This document shows positions 2,947 to 6,711 of a stretch of DNA of 21,659 nt, in pieces. The stretch is taken from IMG/VR virus record IMGVR_UViG_2541047437_000015. One strand, given 5' to 3'. The position numbers and the translations under genes were made by a program. Within the stretch, counting starts at the first letter, position 1. Each line of letters starts with the position of its first letter. The notes beneath the pieces were generated by a model. It made no database searches and was not told the origin of the DNA. It saw nothing but the letters and a program-made list of their open reading frames with translations. The DNA comes from a virus (taxonomy: Duplodnaviria; Heunggongvirae; Uroviricota; Caudoviricetes).

Positions 2947-2987
2947 CCCGCCAGCCATATCATGACCGGCGGGATTTTTTTATTCTG
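2947..2987 (+). terminator. Plus-strand-oriented intrinsic-terminator-like hairpin (CCCGCC...GGCGGG followed by ATTTTTTTATT), directly abutting the esterase stop codon
   Basis: 6-bp GC stem with a ~15-nt loop and a T7 run on the plus strand. On the minus strand, where the neighbouring genes lie, the A-run precedes the hairpin, so it would not act as a canonical terminator for them. Confidence 0.4.
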
Positions 2988-5019
2988 TTACCGCTTTTTT
3001 CACTTCCACCACAATGCTGTCAATCAGCACCGGGTAAGTTGCATTTTTTGTGATATCCGTTACGCGGAGTTTGTCCACCGGGAAAGTTCCTACTGGTGAC
3101 TGCGTCAGGGTAAACGCGGCACCATCCTGACCATCAATAACCGGAATAACCTGAAGGCTGTTATTTCCTGCAAAACGGAAGGCCAGCGTATGCCATTCAT
3201 TATCAAATGCACCAAAGGTTCCCAGTTTCTGGTTATTTGTTGCCACTTTTGCATTGTGGTACATCACATTCAGGTCTTTTGCGTCTGTCTGGATGTAGAA
3301 CGATGCCAGCAGATTATTCCCTGCATCCCCTGTCAGGGTGACACCCTGCGGCAGAGAGGAAACCGGCCAGTAAAGCCCCATGACATACTGGTTTGCCACC
3401 AGGTCGCCAGGTACTTTAAAACGACAACTGATTAAACCACCATTTTTCAGCAGTTCAGCACCAGTACCGGCATCATGATCCAGATACCAAGATGATTTAC
3501 CTGTTTCCTTGGTCAGTTTCATTGCCTTACCACCTGTGCCTCCTGCATCACTGATAATTTCAGCTTTACCGCCAGCCGGCTCCCAGCCCTGGGCTTTCAG
3601 ATTTCCTTCTGACTCACTGACACGATAAGACAGCAGTGTTGTGGTTACTGCTTCAGTTTCTGAAGGTGACGGCACTGGTGCTTCAGTTTCAGAAGATGGA
3701 ACATCGGCTTTTACTGTGGTTCGCCCCGCATGAGTCAGAACTGCCGTGGCCAGACGGTCGGAAATAATCCCACGACGTGCCCATGAACTGAAATGGCTGG
3801 CCCGGTCCGCAGATGTCCAGGTGGCGGCACTGTTACGCCACGTTGAGCCGTAATAACCAATGGATTCAATATCCGGGTCTTCTGCCGGATTGTTGGTGGG
3901 TACATTCGCGTCATTTTCATCTGTCATTAATGGAACGAAATGAATGTTTTTATCTGTTTTGTTTTTGTAGCCGCCATAGATTGCCTGGTATGCCGGTTCA
4001 TTTTTCTGTTTCCAGAAATACGTGGTATCGCCACAAATCCACGGAACGCCAGCAGCACTGCCACCGGTACACTGTTCCGCCTGTTCAGCCAGGTCTGCGC
4101 GGAATTTTTCCACCATCGCCAGAAACAGCGCGGAATGCTCCGTCGGCTTCGCATCAATATCAAACTCGCCCTGCATCCACACCACAGCAAGCAGGCGGTT
4201 TTTCGGGTTCTTCGCCAGTGCCGCTTTTGTCCGGCTGATTAAGTCCTTATACAGCGGCTTATCCACACCCCAGCGGGCTGAGTCCTCTGAAGCACCCGTG
4301 CTGTCACTGTACGTGCCGTCAGCACCCGCCGTGAATGCAGAACCACCACGGCAGCAGGGAACCAGCAGAATCCCCGCATCTGCCGGAATAAACGGCAGCA
4401 GTTTTTTGGCAATGTGAAGCCCCTGACCCACGGTGCCATATTGCCCTTTAGCCACATCCGCTTTCGGGTGATTTTTTCCACTCATATCCTGCACATCATG
4501 CAGACAGTGGTCGGCCAGAATGATGTCGTTATACTGACAGGCTTTACCTCCCGGCGTGACTGTACTGCGACGGGCTAACTGCATAATACGCGGTTCGGGG
4601 CGGTCATATGTCTCCGGCAGTGGCAGACCTTCACCGTAAGCCATACCGTTTGACTGACCAGCAAGAACCACCACGTAATACCAGGAAGGGGAGCTGGAAG
4701 CAGTTTCATTTCCTGACGGACGGGTATGTGTTTCAGCATTATCCCAGTCTGACGGTTCAGCAGTACCGGCAACATCAGCACTTAACGGAATGACCGCACC
4801 AATACCCGCTCCGGTAATTTCCACACTCGGATCACCGGATACTGGCCTTACCCACAGGCAATCCCGTGTATTAAAACTGATGAGACAGTCAGCAAATGTC
4901 ATTCCTCCTTTTGTTTCGGCCGGAGGAAAGGGAGCCTCAAGAAATGCCGCTGTACCACCGGAAACTTTAACAGTAAAGTTTCCGGGCATTGATGATAGTT
5001 GAACCCATTTGGACGTCAT
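2980..5019 (-). CDS. SGNH/SASA-family esterase, putatively a sialate O-acetylesterase-like (NanS-p-like) protein, with a C-terminal lectin/carbohydrate-binding-like domain
   Basis: 679-aa ORF. VVVLAGQSNGMAYGE contains the GQSN nucleophile motif typical of SASA/SGNH esterases. A Ser/Thr/Glu/Pro linker (SETEAPVPSPSETEA) precedes a ~200-aa beta-rich C-terminal domain. This architecture resembles the prophage-borne NanS-p esterases of E. coli. Confidence 0.6.
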   Translation of the reverse strand: MTSKWVQLSSMPGNFTVKVSGGTAAFLEAPFPPAETKGGMTFADCLISFNTRDCLWVRPVSGDPSVEITGAGIGAVIPLSADVAGTAEPSDWDNAETHTRPSGNETASSSPSWYYVVVLAGQSNGMAYGEGLPLPETYDRPEPRIMQLARRSTVTPGGKACQYNDIILADHCLHDVQDMSGKNHPKADVAKGQYGTVGQGLHIAKKLLPFIPADAGILLVPCCRGGSAFTAGADGTYSDSTGASEDSARWGVDKPLYKDLISRTKAALAKNPKNRLLAVVWMQGEFDIDAKPTEHSALFLAMVEKFRADLAEQAEQCTGGSAAGVPWICGDTTYFWKQKNEPAYQAIYGGYKNKTDKNIHFVPLMTDENDANVPTNNPAEDPDIESIGYYGSTWRNSAATWTSADRASHFSSWARRGIISDRLATAVLTHAGRTTVKADVPSSETEAPVPSPSETEAVTTTLLSYRVSESEGNLKAQGWEPAGGKAEIISDAGGTGGKAMKLTKETGKSSWYLDHDAGTGAELLKNGGLISCRFKVPGDLVANQYVMGLYWPVSSLPQGVTLTGDAGNNLLASFYIQTDAKDLNVMYHNAKVATNNQKLGTFGAFDNEWHTLAFRFAGNNSLQVIPVIDGQDGAAFTLTQSPVGTFPVDKLRVTDITKNATYPVLIDSIVVEVKKAVTE

Positions 5020-5118
5020 AATAATCAGCCTGTTCCTGAATAAACTGAATTATCATATCCACAGACCGATAAACGCCATTTTGCGTTAATTCAGTAAAGG
5101 CCCAACAAAGAGAGCGTC

Positions 5119-5679
5119 TTATTTTTCCGAAACGCTCGCAGGATAATAACGATAAAGGGTTGAAAGGCCGATATCAAAAATAAGTGCCACCTGTCTTCGA
5201 CTGACACCCCCGGCCAGTAAACGCCCGACCTGCTCGTATTGTTCCTGCGTGAGACGACGGGGTCTGCCGCCGGTTCGTCCCCTTTCACGGGCAGCTGCAA
5301 GACCAGCCCGTGTCCGTTCGACAATTAATTCACGCTCCATTTCTGCCAGCGCACCCATTATGTGAAAAAAGAAGCGCCCCATGGGGGTTGACGTATCAAT
5401 GTTGTCAGTAAGACTACGAAAATTTATCCCCTGTTGCTGTAATTCATCTGTCAGCGCAACAAGGTGGCGCATACTGCGCCCCAGCCTGTCCAGTTTCCAG
5501 ACCATCAGTGTGTCACCGGGTTTTAGTTTCTTCAGTGCCCGCTTCAGTCCCGGCCGCTGTGTCGTTTTACCACTCATTTTATCTTCAAAAATCTGCTCAC
5601 ATCCTGCACATTCCAGCGCATTTCTTTGTAAACCTGTGTTCTGGTCATTTGTTGATACGCGTATATAGCCAATCAGCAT
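5119..5679 (-). CDS. gin: Gin/Pin/Cin/Hin-family serine DNA invertase
   Basis: 186-aa ORF. MLIGYIRVSTNDQN...VWKLDRLGRSM...FRSLTDNIDTSTPMGRFFFHIMGALAEMERELIVERT is near-identical in pattern to Mu Gin, with the catalytic Ser in the RVST motif. RBS AAGGAAGG 8 nt upstream. Lies adjacent to a gix-like site. Confidence 0.9.
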   Translation of the reverse strand: MLIGYIRVSTNDQNTGLQRNALECAGCEQIFEDKMSGKTTQRPGLKRALKKLKPGDTLMVWKLDRLGRSMRHLVALTDELQQQGINFRSLTDNIDTSTPMGRFFFHIMGALAEMERELIVERTRAGLAAARERGRTGGRPRRLTQEQYEQVGRLLAGGVSRRQVALIFDIGLSTLYRYYPASVSEK

Positions 5680-5733
5680 GTATTTACCTTCCTTAAAAAG
5701 AGGTGGAAAGGCCTTTTAAAGCAGATATACGGC

Positions 5734-5760
5734 ATCCCTGAAACCTTCGGTTTACGGGAT
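5734..5760. other. gix-like recombination site A (gin-proximal): ATCCCTGAAACC-TTC-GGTTTACGGGAT, 12-bp half-sites with an atypical 3-bp spacer
   Basis: Imperfect palindrome read directly. The inside half GGTTTACGGGA is identical to the inside half of site B. It resembles Mu gix TTCCTGTAAACC-GA-GGTTTTGGATAA as I remember it. Confidence 0.6.
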
Positions 5761-6105
5761 ACTGTAAACAGGGCCGCGAATGCCCTGCCATCGAACGGAG
5801 CGGCTGTTGCAGCGAATAAACTCGCCACTCCAAGAAATATTAATGGTGTCCCATTTGACGGAACGCAGGATATAAATATTACATCGGGGATGACGCAGTC
5901 TGTGGCTGACTCACGTTATGTTCAAAGCATTCGAAGAGGTTCAAGGTCAACGATTGGAATGCAATATAATATTTTTGAGGTTCCTGACGGATGCGTACTT
6001 ACAGGGCTTGATGTCGCTGGTGATGGTAATGCAACGGTAACCGCATATTATCGACCTGTTCAGTTTCTGATAGATGGTTCGTGGAAAACAGCTTCCAGCG
6101 CATAA
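5749..6105 (+). other. Silent alternative tail-fibre C-terminal cassette (S'-variable arm); in frame from the gix core, no start codon of its own
   Basis: Translation from 5749 reads GLRDTVNRAANALPSNGAAVAANKLATPRNINGVPFDGTQDINITSGMTQSVADSRYVQS...YYRPVQFLIDGSWKTASSA, paralleling the C-terminus of the expressed fibre (GLRETVNKAADALPSGGTAVAANRLATPRNINGVPFDGTLDINITSGMTQSTADGRYVQ...YYRPVQIYINNAWRTVSSV). Track ORF 5890..6105 is its 3' part. Confidence 0.7.
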
Positions 6106-6184
6106 AAGTGCAGTAGTTCAAAAAACAGATTATCTGAATAAATATATGATGATTTTGTCTTTTCAACAAAAACAAGGTGAAATA

Positions 6185-6706
6185 ATGGAGCTTATTAACG
6201 TAAAACGATATTACCCGGAACACAAACCCTATGGTGAGGATGTTCAGTATTTCCAGAGTGAGGACGGAAGGGATTTTTATGAATCTATCCCGCTTTTCAC
6301 AAAGAAATACAAACTCTGTATTTCGCCTGTAACGGGTATTATCTGCTCTGTTGCTGAAGATGTCTCTGCTTTATATCCGGCAGGTTTTACTGTTGTTGAA
6401 GTGGACGAACTGCCGGAAGGTGTGAATATTGACGGTAACTGGCAGTTTTCTGATGGCCTGATATCAAAGGTGCCGGTAAACTGGAAGACGGTTGCTGAAA
6501 AGCGCCGCTCATCGCTGCTCCAGGAAGCCAACGAAACTGTGGATGACTGGAAAACGGAATTAAAACTGGACATGATTAGCGATGAAAATAAATTACAGCT
6601 GACGCGCTGGATGGCGTATATCCGACAGCTTAAAGAAATGCACTTTAATGATATTGCCAGTGAGGGGCATTACCAGGCGATTCCCTGGCCGGAAAAACCG
6701 GAATAA
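6185..6706 (+). CDS. Tail-fibre assembly protein (Tfa / Mu U'-like chaperone) belonging to the silent cassette
   Basis: 173 aa from ATG 6185 (AAGGTGA RBS). The C-terminal half has the pattern I associate with lambda-type Tfa proteins. It immediately follows the plus-strand fibre cassette. Track ORF 6074..6706 is over-extended at the 5' end. Confidence 0.75.
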   Translation: MELINVKRYYPEHKPYGEDVQYFQSEDGRDFYESIPLFTKKYKLCISPVTGIICSVAEDVSALYPAGFTVVEVDELPEGVNIDGNWQFSDGLISKVPVNWKTVAEKRRSSLLQEANETVDDWKTELKLDMISDENKLQLTRWMAYIRQLKEMHFNDIASEGHYQAIPWPEKPE

Positions 6707-6711
6707 TTCAG

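What the first reader, a model, noticed from the sequence alone, without database searches (positions are those of the whole stretch)
5749..5910. About 160-bp inverted homology (~80% identity) between the two fibre arms just inside the crossover sites
Sequence 5749-5910 (plus) and 7121-6960 (minus) encode the same ~50 residues (GLR(D/E)TVN...ALPS...ATPRNINGVPFDGT...ITSGMTQS) with identical runs of 12-20 nt. This is much longer than the 34-bp inverted repeats I recall for Mu G. It would keep the joint in frame after inversion, and could also support homologous (RecA-dependent) inversion or gene conversion between arms even if site A is impaired.
Basis: seen in the sequence. Interest (0 to 1): 0.45.

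Follow-up and report, generated by a model that had tools for sequence, protein, structure and literature searches.

The report
Shared start of two alternative fibre tips
The roughly 160-bp inverted similarity is real, but it is simply the conserved first ~59 codons shared by two related, alternative tail-fibre ends inside a Mu-type invertible segment of an EHEC prophage, which is an ordinary and already documented arrangement.

Summary
Observation confirmed. 5749-5910 and 7121-6960 align without gaps at 129/162 (79.6%), against 71.8±2.3 in shuffles. The window matches the Mu-like prophage Sp18 of EHEC. Layout: invertase, crossover site A, silent arm Sv', one tail-fibre assembly gene, expressed arm Sv fused to constant Sc, site B.

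The two arms are paralogues over their whole length (57% aa identity, E 3e-48). The "homology" is their conserved N-terminal ~59 codons (85% aa identity, omega about 0.09). Protein constraint predicts 113 of the 129 matches; the excess is significant (P=0.0002).

Measured the same way, Mu G has 41 nt at 93% and P1 C has 636 nt at 98%. E. coli EC958 prophages are published with 227-508-bp imperfect repeats at these sites. This kind of repeat is therefore known.

Among complete E. coli genomes, 182 have the window orientation and 23 the flipped one. All six flipped loci I read have whole, non-chimeric arms; the two closest in-silico pairs differ by 0-1 base, which points to the invertase rather than homologous inversion.

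Relatives do carry non-reciprocal mosaic arms, with up to 128 nt of perfect arm-to-arm identity. Gene conversion within the block therefore occurs.

The window's site A has one extra base. It occurs in 36 records, none flipped.

The parts
5119..5679 (-). Serine DNA invertase (Gin/Cin/Pin type), 186 aa
   Evidence: Pfam Resolvase N-terminal domain, E 1.4e-51, and HTH_7, E 1.7e-14. Annotated as DNA-invertase ECs_4992 in Sakai prophage Sp18.
5734..5760 (+). Crossover site A (invertase side): ATCCCTGAAACC-TTC-GGTTTACGGGAT. It has one base more than the 26-bp sites of relatives (AAACC TT GGTTT or AAACC TC GGTTT).
   Evidence: Site table for 19 loci. The difference from flipped locus L001 is a 1-nt deletion at 5748. 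36 records carry this exact junction in the window orientation and 0 carry it with the flipped arm.
5749..5928 (+). Conserved block of the silent arm Sv' (60 codons). This is the finding itself.
   Evidence: 79.6% nt identity and 50/60 identical residues with the other arm. First 59 codons of the aligned arms: pN 0.093, pS 0.58, omega 0.09.
5749..6105 (+). Whole silent alternative fibre end Sv' (118 aa plus stop). RefSeq annotates only 5890-6105, from an internal ATG.
   Evidence: Translation. It becomes a 295-aa Sc-Sv' protein in flipped genomes. BLASTP against Sv: 57% identity, E 3e-48.
6185..6706 (+). Tail-fibre assembly (chaperone) gene. It is co-oriented with Sv' and is the only such gene in the segment.
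   Evidence: Pfam Caudo_TAP, E 1.9e-18. PHROG 136, tail fiber assembly protein, E 1.1e-57.
6710..6732 (+). Terminator-like hairpin between the converging chaperone gene and the Sv arm
   Evidence: 9-pair stem followed by a T run. This is a consensus match only.
6741..7121 (-). Expressed fibre end Sv (126 aa plus stop)
   Evidence: Translation. Its C-terminal ~70 aa match Mu S 435-503 (PDB 5yvq) and a short tail fibre (PDB 9cuy).
6942..7121 (-). Conserved block of the expressed arm Sv, the partner of 5749-5928
7110..7135 (-). Crossover site B (Sc side): TTATCGATAACG-TT-GGTTTACGGGAA on the minus strand
   Evidence: It fits the published invertase crossover consensus quoted in PMC4134206.
7122..7652 (-). 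Constant part Sc of the tail-fibre gene S (starts MFHVDNNSG at 7652)
   Evidence: Residues 1-191 align to Mu tail fibre protein S, PDB 5yvq and 8ju3, E 4e-49. PHROG 1833, E 5.5e-166.

Best explanation
The window carries the host-range switch of an Sp18-like, Mu-like prophage. A constant 5' part of the tail-fibre gene (Sc) lies outside a ~1.37-kb invertible segment. Two alternative 3' ends, Sv and Sv', lie inside it in opposite orientation. A serine invertase exchanges them at two 26-bp sites.

Sv and Sv' are paralogues over their full length. The 160-180-bp inverted repeat is their first ~59 codons. This module sits between the shaft and the small C-terminal tip domain, which by its homology to the end of Mu S is presumably the receptor-binding part, and it is kept similar mainly by purifying selection on the protein. 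The distal ~60 codons, the tip, have diverged.

On top of this constraint, the block is occasionally homogenised or reshuffled by homologous gene conversion. This happens between the arms, or between phage copies in opposite orientation. As a result, relatives range from 72% to 95% arm identity, with perfect inverted repeats of 11 to 128 nt.

The inversion itself does not use the block. It happens at the core dinucleotide at the outer edge of the repeat.

What is shown: the gene layout, the paralogy, the selection pattern, the precise flips and the mosaic arms. What is inferred: the structural role of the module as an adaptor between shaft and tip, the receptor-binding role of the tip, and the route of conversion (in cis or in trans, and by which recombinase).
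For: Identity of the locus: 100% match to many EHEC genomes, and a near-identical match (one base shorter, 2800 of 2801 nt) to the region annotated 'prophage Sp18, Mu-like phage' in Sakai. Invertase, chaperone and Mu Gp48 domains are present. Sc is homologous to Mu S.

Paralogy: BLASTP of Sv against Sv' gives 72/126 identical, E 3e-48.

Selection: in the first 59 codons aa identity is 85%, pN 0.093, pS 0.58 and omega 0.09. In the rest, aa identity is 38% and pS 0.78. Independent codon choice given the two proteins predicts 113.1 +/- 4.0 identical bases of 162. The observed value is 129 (P=0.0002), and 26 identical codons are seen against 17 expected (P=0.003). Protein constraint therefore explains most of the identity, with a real residue of shared ancestry or conversion.

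Site-specific flipping: 182 genomes have the window orientation and 23 the flipped one, each over at least 80% of a 2.8-kb query. L011 flipped in silico at the core equals L004 with 0 differences in 2990 nt. Sakai flipped in silico equals L001 except for 1 distant base. The silent arm is an intact in-frame ORF in all 16 loci where it could be read.

Conversion: mosaic v/p patterns appear across 19 loci. Perfect arm identity from the core is 26 nt in L002, L004 and L010-L012, 84 and 96 nt in L016 and L017, and 128 nt in L019. In L019 both arms share private variants absent from the window's arms. L018 joins the block of a third allele to the Sv' tip.

Precedent: P1 C has 636 nt at 98%, starting at the annotated cix sites. 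EC958 prophages have a 508-bp repeat at 77% and a 227-bp repeat at 96% containing the crossover sites (PMC4134206).
Against: In my non-random sample of 19 loci, mean arm-to-arm identity within a genome (0.815) is not higher than between genomes (0.843). Homogenisation is therefore episodic, not general.

No Pfam family and no solved structure covers the block, so its structural role is inferred only from its position.

The difference in synonymous divergence between the block and the tip is not significant (Fisher P=0.07).

Only 6 of the 23 flipped genomes were read base by base.
Confidence: 0.85

Rival explanations
1. The repeat is maintained as a DNA substrate for homologous inversion, by RecA or by a Red-like recombinase of a co-resident lambdoid prophage. 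This would serve as a back-up switch when the site-specific route is impaired.
For: Nucleotide identity exceeds what protein constraint predicts (129 against 113.1 +/- 4.0, P=0.0002). Exchange within the block clearly happens in relatives. In lambda, 800-bp inverted repeats 22% diverged invert at about 1e-6 through RecABCD and about 1e-4 through Red (PMC2327257). The window's site A carries an extra base.
Against: All six flipped loci read base by base have whole, non-chimeric arms, and the two closest pairs match an in-silico flip at the core with 0-1 differences. The chimeras seen are non-reciprocal: one arm is converted and the other is unchanged, which is conversion and not inversion. None of the 36 records with the window-type site A is flipped, and at least 33 are identical over 2801 nt. 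The longest identical run is 20 nt in a repeat of only ~160 bp at 20% divergence. That is below the bacterial MEPS, given as at most 30 identical bp (PMC8918686). Synonymous sites are 58% different, so the DNA sequence as such is not conserved.
Confidence: 0.07
2. The similarity is only a neutral leftover of the duplication that created the two arms. There would be no selection on the block and no later exchange.
For: The arms are full-length paralogues. There are more identical codons than expected from independent codon choice.
Against: Omega of 0.09 with pS of 0.58 shows strong protein-level constraint specific to the block, whereas the tip has pN of 0.46. Abrupt tracts of perfect identity of 84-128 nt next to ~50% identical sequence in relatives cannot be a uniform decay.
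Confidence: 0.04
3. The block holds extra protein-binding DNA sites, such as accessory invertase or Fis sites, needed for synapsis or for the directionality of inversion.
For: None was found here. The only point in its favour is that the block adjoins the crossover sites.
Against: Mu G has only about 41 nt of inverted identity, and Mu-type switches are described with 34-bp repeats as the target of Gin (PMC4406740). Synonymous positions vary freely both between the arms and among alleles.
Confidence: 0.02

Closest known systems
Phage P1 C segment (Cin/cix): long inverted repeats just inside the crossover sites
   Same: An invertase gene lies next to the segment, and Sc lies outside it with Sv and Sv' inside. 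The inverted repeat starts at the crossover site and runs inward, encoding the shared first part of both variable ends.
   Different: The window's repeat is about four times shorter and only ~80% identical. P1 has a chaperone gene for each arm (U and U'), whereas the window has one.
Phage Mu G segment (Gin/gix)
   Same: This is the closest relative of the locus. Sc residues 1-191 align to Mu S. The neighbouring Gp48 baseplate gene is present. The core (GGTTTAC[A/G]GGAAACGGTAAA) and the first residues of the arm (GL[Q/R]ETVN) are the same.
   Different: Mu's arms share only 41 nt at 93%, about 9 residues, and then diverge. Mu arms are ~330 aa with two chaperone genes, whereas the arms here are 118 and 126 aa with one.
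Invertible tail-fibre segments of E. coli EC958 prophages Phi1, Phi2 and Phi4 (Forde et al. 2014, PMC4134206)
   Same: [quoted passage not shown] Phi4 has a 36-bp repeat. This is the same anatomy and the same range of lengths and identities as here.
   Different: Those are different prophages, with fibres carrying Phage_fibre_2 repeats and a tail-collar domain, whereas no Pfam family matches here. Both orientations were seen within one culture there; here I only have orientations across genomes.

Membership tests
Gin/Cin/Pin/Hin-type invertible tail-fibre switch | Serine recombinase of the resolvase/invertase family encoded next to the segment | tested here: met
   5119-5679(-): Pfam Resolvase, E 1.4e-51, plus HTH_7, E 1.7e-14.
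Gin/Cin/Pin/Hin-type invertible tail-fibre switch | Two 26-bp crossover sites in inverted orientation, each 12+2+12, with the same central dinucleotide | tested here: inconclusive
   Site B (7110-7135) is a regular site with centre TT. Site A has one extra base (AAACC-TTC-GGTTT); read in register from the inner half, its centre is TC, which does not match TT. Relatives have matched regular sites: TT/TT in Sakai L007 and L001, and TC/TC in L003, L009 and L010.
Gin/Cin/Pin/Hin-type invertible tail-fibre switch | Constant 5' gene part outside the segment, with alternative 3' parts inside in opposite orientation and in the same codon phase at the core | tested here: met
   Translations. The expressed ORF is 303 aa (Sc-Sv) or 295 aa (Sc-Sv'), and the silent arm is intact in 16 of 16 loci that could be read.
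Gin/Cin/Pin/Hin-type invertible tail-fibre switch | Both orientations occur, joined exactly at the crossover core | tested here: met
   This holds for the family: 182 genomes against 23, and in-silico flips reproduce flipped genomes with 0-1 differences. It does not hold for the window's own site-A allele: 36 records in the window orientation and 0 flipped.
Gin/Cin/Pin/Hin-type invertible tail-fibre switch | A tail-fibre assembly (chaperone) gene downstream of each alternative arm, as in Mu U/U' and P1 U/U' | tested here: not met
   Only one Caudo_TAP gene is present (6185-6706,+), and it is co-oriented with Sv'. The Sv arm ends at 6741 facing a hairpin.
Gin/Cin/Pin/Hin-type invertible tail-fibre switch | Fis-dependent recombinational enhancer, located within the 5' part of the invertase gene in Mu and P1 | not tested
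   P1's enhancer is annotated inside cin. I did not look for an equivalent in 5119-5679.
Extended inverted repeats inside the crossover sites (P1 C type; EC958 Phi1/Phi2) | The inverted repeat begins at the crossover site and extends inward into both coding arms, in frame | tested here: met
   Arms 5740-5924 and 6946-7130, ungapped and in frame. The same geometry is seen in P1 and EC958.
Extended inverted repeats inside the crossover sites (P1 C type; EC958 Phi1/Phi2) | Near-identity of the repeat, implying recent homogenisation (P1: 98%) | tested here: not met
   The window has 79.6% identity with a longest identical run of 20 nt. The feature is met in relatives: L019 has 128 nt of perfect identity, and L016 and L017 have 84 and 96 nt. 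EC958 Phi1, at 77%, shows that low identity also occurs in this class.
Pfam Phage_fiber_2 (PF03406) tail-fibre repeat | Match to the Pfam model at or above its gathering score | tested here: not met
   No Pfam family was reported for either arm or for the 59-aa block, even at E <= 10. The resemblance of ATPRNINGVPFDGT to that repeat is from my memory only.

The most novel reading that the evidence does not exclude
The conserved block may be more than a structural module. It could act as a recombination hinge through which tip domains are swapped between the two arms and between co-resident phages. In switch-locked variants such as the window's, with an extra base in site A, homeologous recombination across the block would then be the remaining route to change host range. 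A Red-like recombinase of the many lambdoid prophages in EHEC could drive it.
Probability: 0.1. Interest if true: 0.4.

Novelty: already known. Interest (0 to 1): 0.15.

Why it matters
It matters little beyond correct annotation. The silent arm is a full 118-aa alternative fibre end, not the 67-aa 'tail fiber protein' annotated from an internal ATG. The inverted repeat is a coding feature and not a separate element.

The population data are a tidy natural illustration of two processes at one locus. Precise invertase-mediated flipping happens at the core, and occasional gene conversion happens within the adjoining conserved block.

The one-base insertion in site A may mark a locked host-range switch carried by 36 complete E. 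coli records, including O26, O103 and O157 strains. That could matter for anyone using orientation at this locus as a marker, or studying induction and host range of Sp18-like phages.

Tried and rejected
Pfam on both arms and on the 59-aa block, at E up to 10, gave nothing. I therefore could not file the block under the Phage_fiber_2 repeat that I recalled.

A PDB sequence search with the block gave only chance-level hits, a photosystem subunit and DarA. The structural role of the block remains inferred.

tblastn of the block against 50,697 phage records found the two Stx-phage records that carry an inserted Mu-like phage. It also found weaker partial matches in T4-like Aeromonas gp36-type fibres, Shewanella gpS', a Hafnia tail-collar fibre, and Gifsy-1 and Fels-1 side fibres. 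It did not find Mu or P1. The block is a widespread fibre module but is not part of Mu's or P1's arms.

I tested whether arms within a genome are on average more alike than arms from different genomes. They are not (0.815 against 0.843). I therefore dropped the idea of continuous concerted evolution in favour of episodic conversion.

I first suspected that the extra base at site A would put Sv' out of frame after inversion. The ungapped register from the GGTTT core shows that the frame is kept, so I rejected this.

I looked for literature on the Sp18 switch specifically. I found only mentions of Sp18 as a Mu-like prophage.

I did not run structure prediction or the large protein searches. A fibre monomer model was unlikely to change the verdict.

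Full report
**1.

Read in the register p <-> 12870-p, 5749-5910 (+) and 7121-6960 (-) align without gaps at 129/162 identical bases (79.6%). The identical runs are 11, 14, 9, 20, 13 and 11 nt. The repeat finder returns the pair as its top inverted repeat, 5740-5924 and 6946-7130, 185 nt at 77%. In 20 shuffles of 5000-7800 the best 162-nt inverted match was 71.8 +/- 2.3, against 130 observed. Both strands read in frame from the GGTTT core. They share 50 of the first 60 residues, ending at RYVQ.

**2. What the locus is**

A 2.8-kb stretch around the finding is 100% identical to dozens of EHEC chromosomes. It matches O157:H7 Sakai in the region annotated 'prophage Sp18, Mu-like phage' apart from a one-base length difference. 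On the minus strand the window reads as follows:

- a Mu Gp48-type baseplate gene (7652-8212);
- the tail-fibre gene S (7652-6741, 303 aa);
- after the invertible segment, a serine invertase (5679-5119; Resolvase plus HTH_7).

S residues 1-191 align to Mu tail-fibre protein S (PDB 5yvq and 8ju3, E 4e-49). Its last ~70 residues align to the C-terminal end of Mu S and to a short tail fibre.

Two crossover sites bound a ~1.37-kb segment:

- Site B (7135-7110, minus strand) reads TTATCGATAACG-TT-GGTTTACGGGAA.
- Site A (5734-5760) reads ATCCCTGAAACC-TTC-GGTTTACGGGAT.

Inside the segment lie three features:

- the silent arm Sv' (5749-6105, +);
- a single tail-fibre assembly gene (6185-6706, +; Caudo_TAP);
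- the expressed arm Sv (7121-6741, -).

**3. What the repeat is**

Sv (126 aa) and Sv' (118 aa) are paralogues over their whole length: BLASTP gives 72/126 identical, E 3e-48. The finding is their conserved N-terminal part.

| Region | aa identity | nt identity | pN | pS |
|---|---|---|---|---|
| First 59 codons | 85% | 78% | 0.093 | 0.58 |
| Remaining 58 aligned codons | 38% | 47% | 0.46 | 0.78 |

Omega for the first 59 codons is about 0.09.

I then simulated independent codon choice for the two observed proteins, using the window's own codon usage. This predicts 113.1 +/- 4.0 identical bases of 162. The observed 129 is higher (P=0.0002), and 26 identical codons are seen against 17 expected (P=0.003).

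Purifying selection on the protein therefore accounts for most of the DNA similarity. A significant residue remains that reflects shared ancestry or past exchange. Because 58% of synonymous sites differ, a function of the DNA sequence itself is unlikely.

**4. Comparison with known switches, measured the same way**

- Mu G has 41 nt at 93%, and its arms share only GLQETVN(R/Q)A.
- P1 C has 636 nt at 98%, starting exactly at the annotated cixL and cixR.
- Forde et al. 2014 list, for E. coli EC958 prophages, crossover sites that are 'part of' imperfect inverted repeats of 508 bp at 77%, 227 bp at 96% and 36 bp (PMC4134206).

The window's 160-185 nt at ~80% sits inside this documented range.

**5. 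How inversion happens in nature**

A synthetic query with 5749-7121 turned over found 23 complete E. coli genomes in the flipped orientation. 182 genomes have the window orientation, each counted over at least 80% of 2.8 kb. I read six flipped and twelve unflipped loci base by base.

Flipped and unflipped relatives differ by an exact exchange at the core:

- L011 turned over in silico equals L004, with 0 differences in 2990 nt.
- Sakai (L007) turned over equals L001, except for one base 640 nt away.

The first position that distinguishes the arms is 11 nt inside the core. The exchange is therefore confined to the crossover site itself. That is the signature of the invertase, not of homologous crossing-over within the block. 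In every locus where I could read it, the expressed gene is intact (303 or 295 aa) and the silent arm is an intact in-frame ORF.

**6. Exchange within the block does occur, but it is non-reciprocal**

I scored the 53 positions that distinguish the window's two arms in their first 200 nt, across 19 loci. This gives clear mosaics:

- L002, L004 and L010-L012 have Sv-type bases over the first 26 nt of the Sv' arm.
- L020 has an Sv' arm that is Sv-like for about 105 nt.
- L016 and L017 have arms perfectly identical for 84 and 96 nt.
- L019 has arms perfectly identical for 128 nt and then only ~50% identical.
- L018 carries the block of a third allele on the Sv' tip.

In L019 both arms share private variants that the window's arms lack. 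This is hard to explain except by transfer from one arm to the other.

In none of these cases does the partner arm carry the reciprocal chimera. These are therefore conversion tracts, not homologous inversions. I cannot tell whether they arose within one genome or between phage copies in opposite orientation.

Averaged over my non-random sample, arms within a genome are not more alike than arms between genomes (0.815 against 0.843). Homogenisation is thus episodic.

**7. Could the block drive homologous inversion in this window?**

In principle yes, but only rarely. In lambda, 800-bp inverted repeats 22% diverged invert at about 1e-6 through RecABCD and about 1e-4 through Red (PMC2327257). Here the repeat is five times shorter. 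Its longest identical run is 20 nt, below the bacterial minimal efficient processing segment (MEPS), given as at most 30 identical bp (PMC8918686).

The population data agree with this. 36 records carry exactly the window's site-A junction, and at least 33 of them are identical over the whole 2801 nt. No record carries that site joined to the other arm. These records are not independent, so this is weak evidence, but it gives no support to a back-up route.

**8. The frame argument**

The joint stays in frame because the GGTTT core is in the same codon phase in both arms. Mu manages this with about nine shared codons. The long homology is not needed for it.

**9. Site A**

Relative to Sakai (AAACC TT GGTTT) and to TC-type relatives (AAACC TC GGTTT), the window has one extra base (AAACC TTC GGTTT). 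Two readings are possible. Either the half-sites are 3 nt apart instead of 2, or the outer half-site is shifted and the centre (TC) differs from that of site B (TT).

From established knowledge of Gin, Hin and Cin, matched central dinucleotides are required for productive inversion. The SfMu authors likewise suggest that a one-base change beside the centre could reduce or abolish inversion (PMC4406740). The window's switch is therefore probably locked in the Sv orientation. This is inference; I could not test it.

**10. Verdict**

The feature is the conserved coding start of two paralogous alternative fibre ends in a known type of invertible segment of a known prophage. It is of low interest as a discovery. 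It is useful for annotation, and as a clean example of site-specific flipping combined with occasional gene conversion.

Noticed in passing
window 5734-5760: Crossover site A has one base more than in Sakai Sp18 and other relatives (AAACC-TTC-GGTTT against AAACC-TT/TC-GGTTT). Exactly this junction occurs in 36 complete E. coli records, including O26, O103 and O157 strains, all in the window orientation. It never occurs joined to the other arm. The switch is probably locked.
   Followed up: partly
L008 (NZ_CP077473.1, O111:H8 strain 8B), locus positions ~828-860 and ~2210-2240: The central dinucleotides of the two crossover sites differ (TC at site A, TT at site B). In Gin/Hin/Cin systems such a mismatch is known to block productive inversion.
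   Followed up: no
window 6185-6741: The invertible segment holds only one tail-fibre assembly gene, co-oriented with the silent Sv' arm. In the window orientation the expressed Sc-Sv gene ends at 6741 facing a terminator-like hairpin (6710-6732), with no chaperone gene downstream. Mu and P1 have one chaperone gene per arm.
   Followed up: partly
window 5890-6105 (+) and about 5693-5878 (-): RefSeq annotates the silent arm only from an internal ATG, as a 67-aa 'tail fiber protein' (ECs_4991 / WP_010917875.1). It also annotates a 61-aa 'hypothetical protein' on the opposite strand across the conserved block, marked 'frameshifted' in some genomes. The second looks like an annotation artefact.
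   Followed up: no
L013-L015 (silent arm, locus ~849-1214) and L018 (expressed arm): A third tip type of 121 aa, closer to the Mu S tip (…GDWEMRGGDDRVYYRQIQYCINGHW…), replaces Sv' in some relatives and makes the segment about 50 nt longer. L018 joins that allele's conserved block to the Sv' tip, so tips and blocks reassort.
   Followed up: partly
window 2980-5019 (-): A 679-aa protein with a SASA carbohydrate-esterase domain and DUF6645 lies just beyond the invertase. Phage Mu has com and mom at that position.
   Followed up: no
L005 (phage Mu) 2416-2440 and 5457-5481: Mu's S' arm repeats, about 45-70 nt inside the G boundary, the 'NGADIP' coding stretch that also ends Sc just outside the boundary. 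This is a 25-nt inverted match at 88%, offset from the gix repeat.
   Followed up: no
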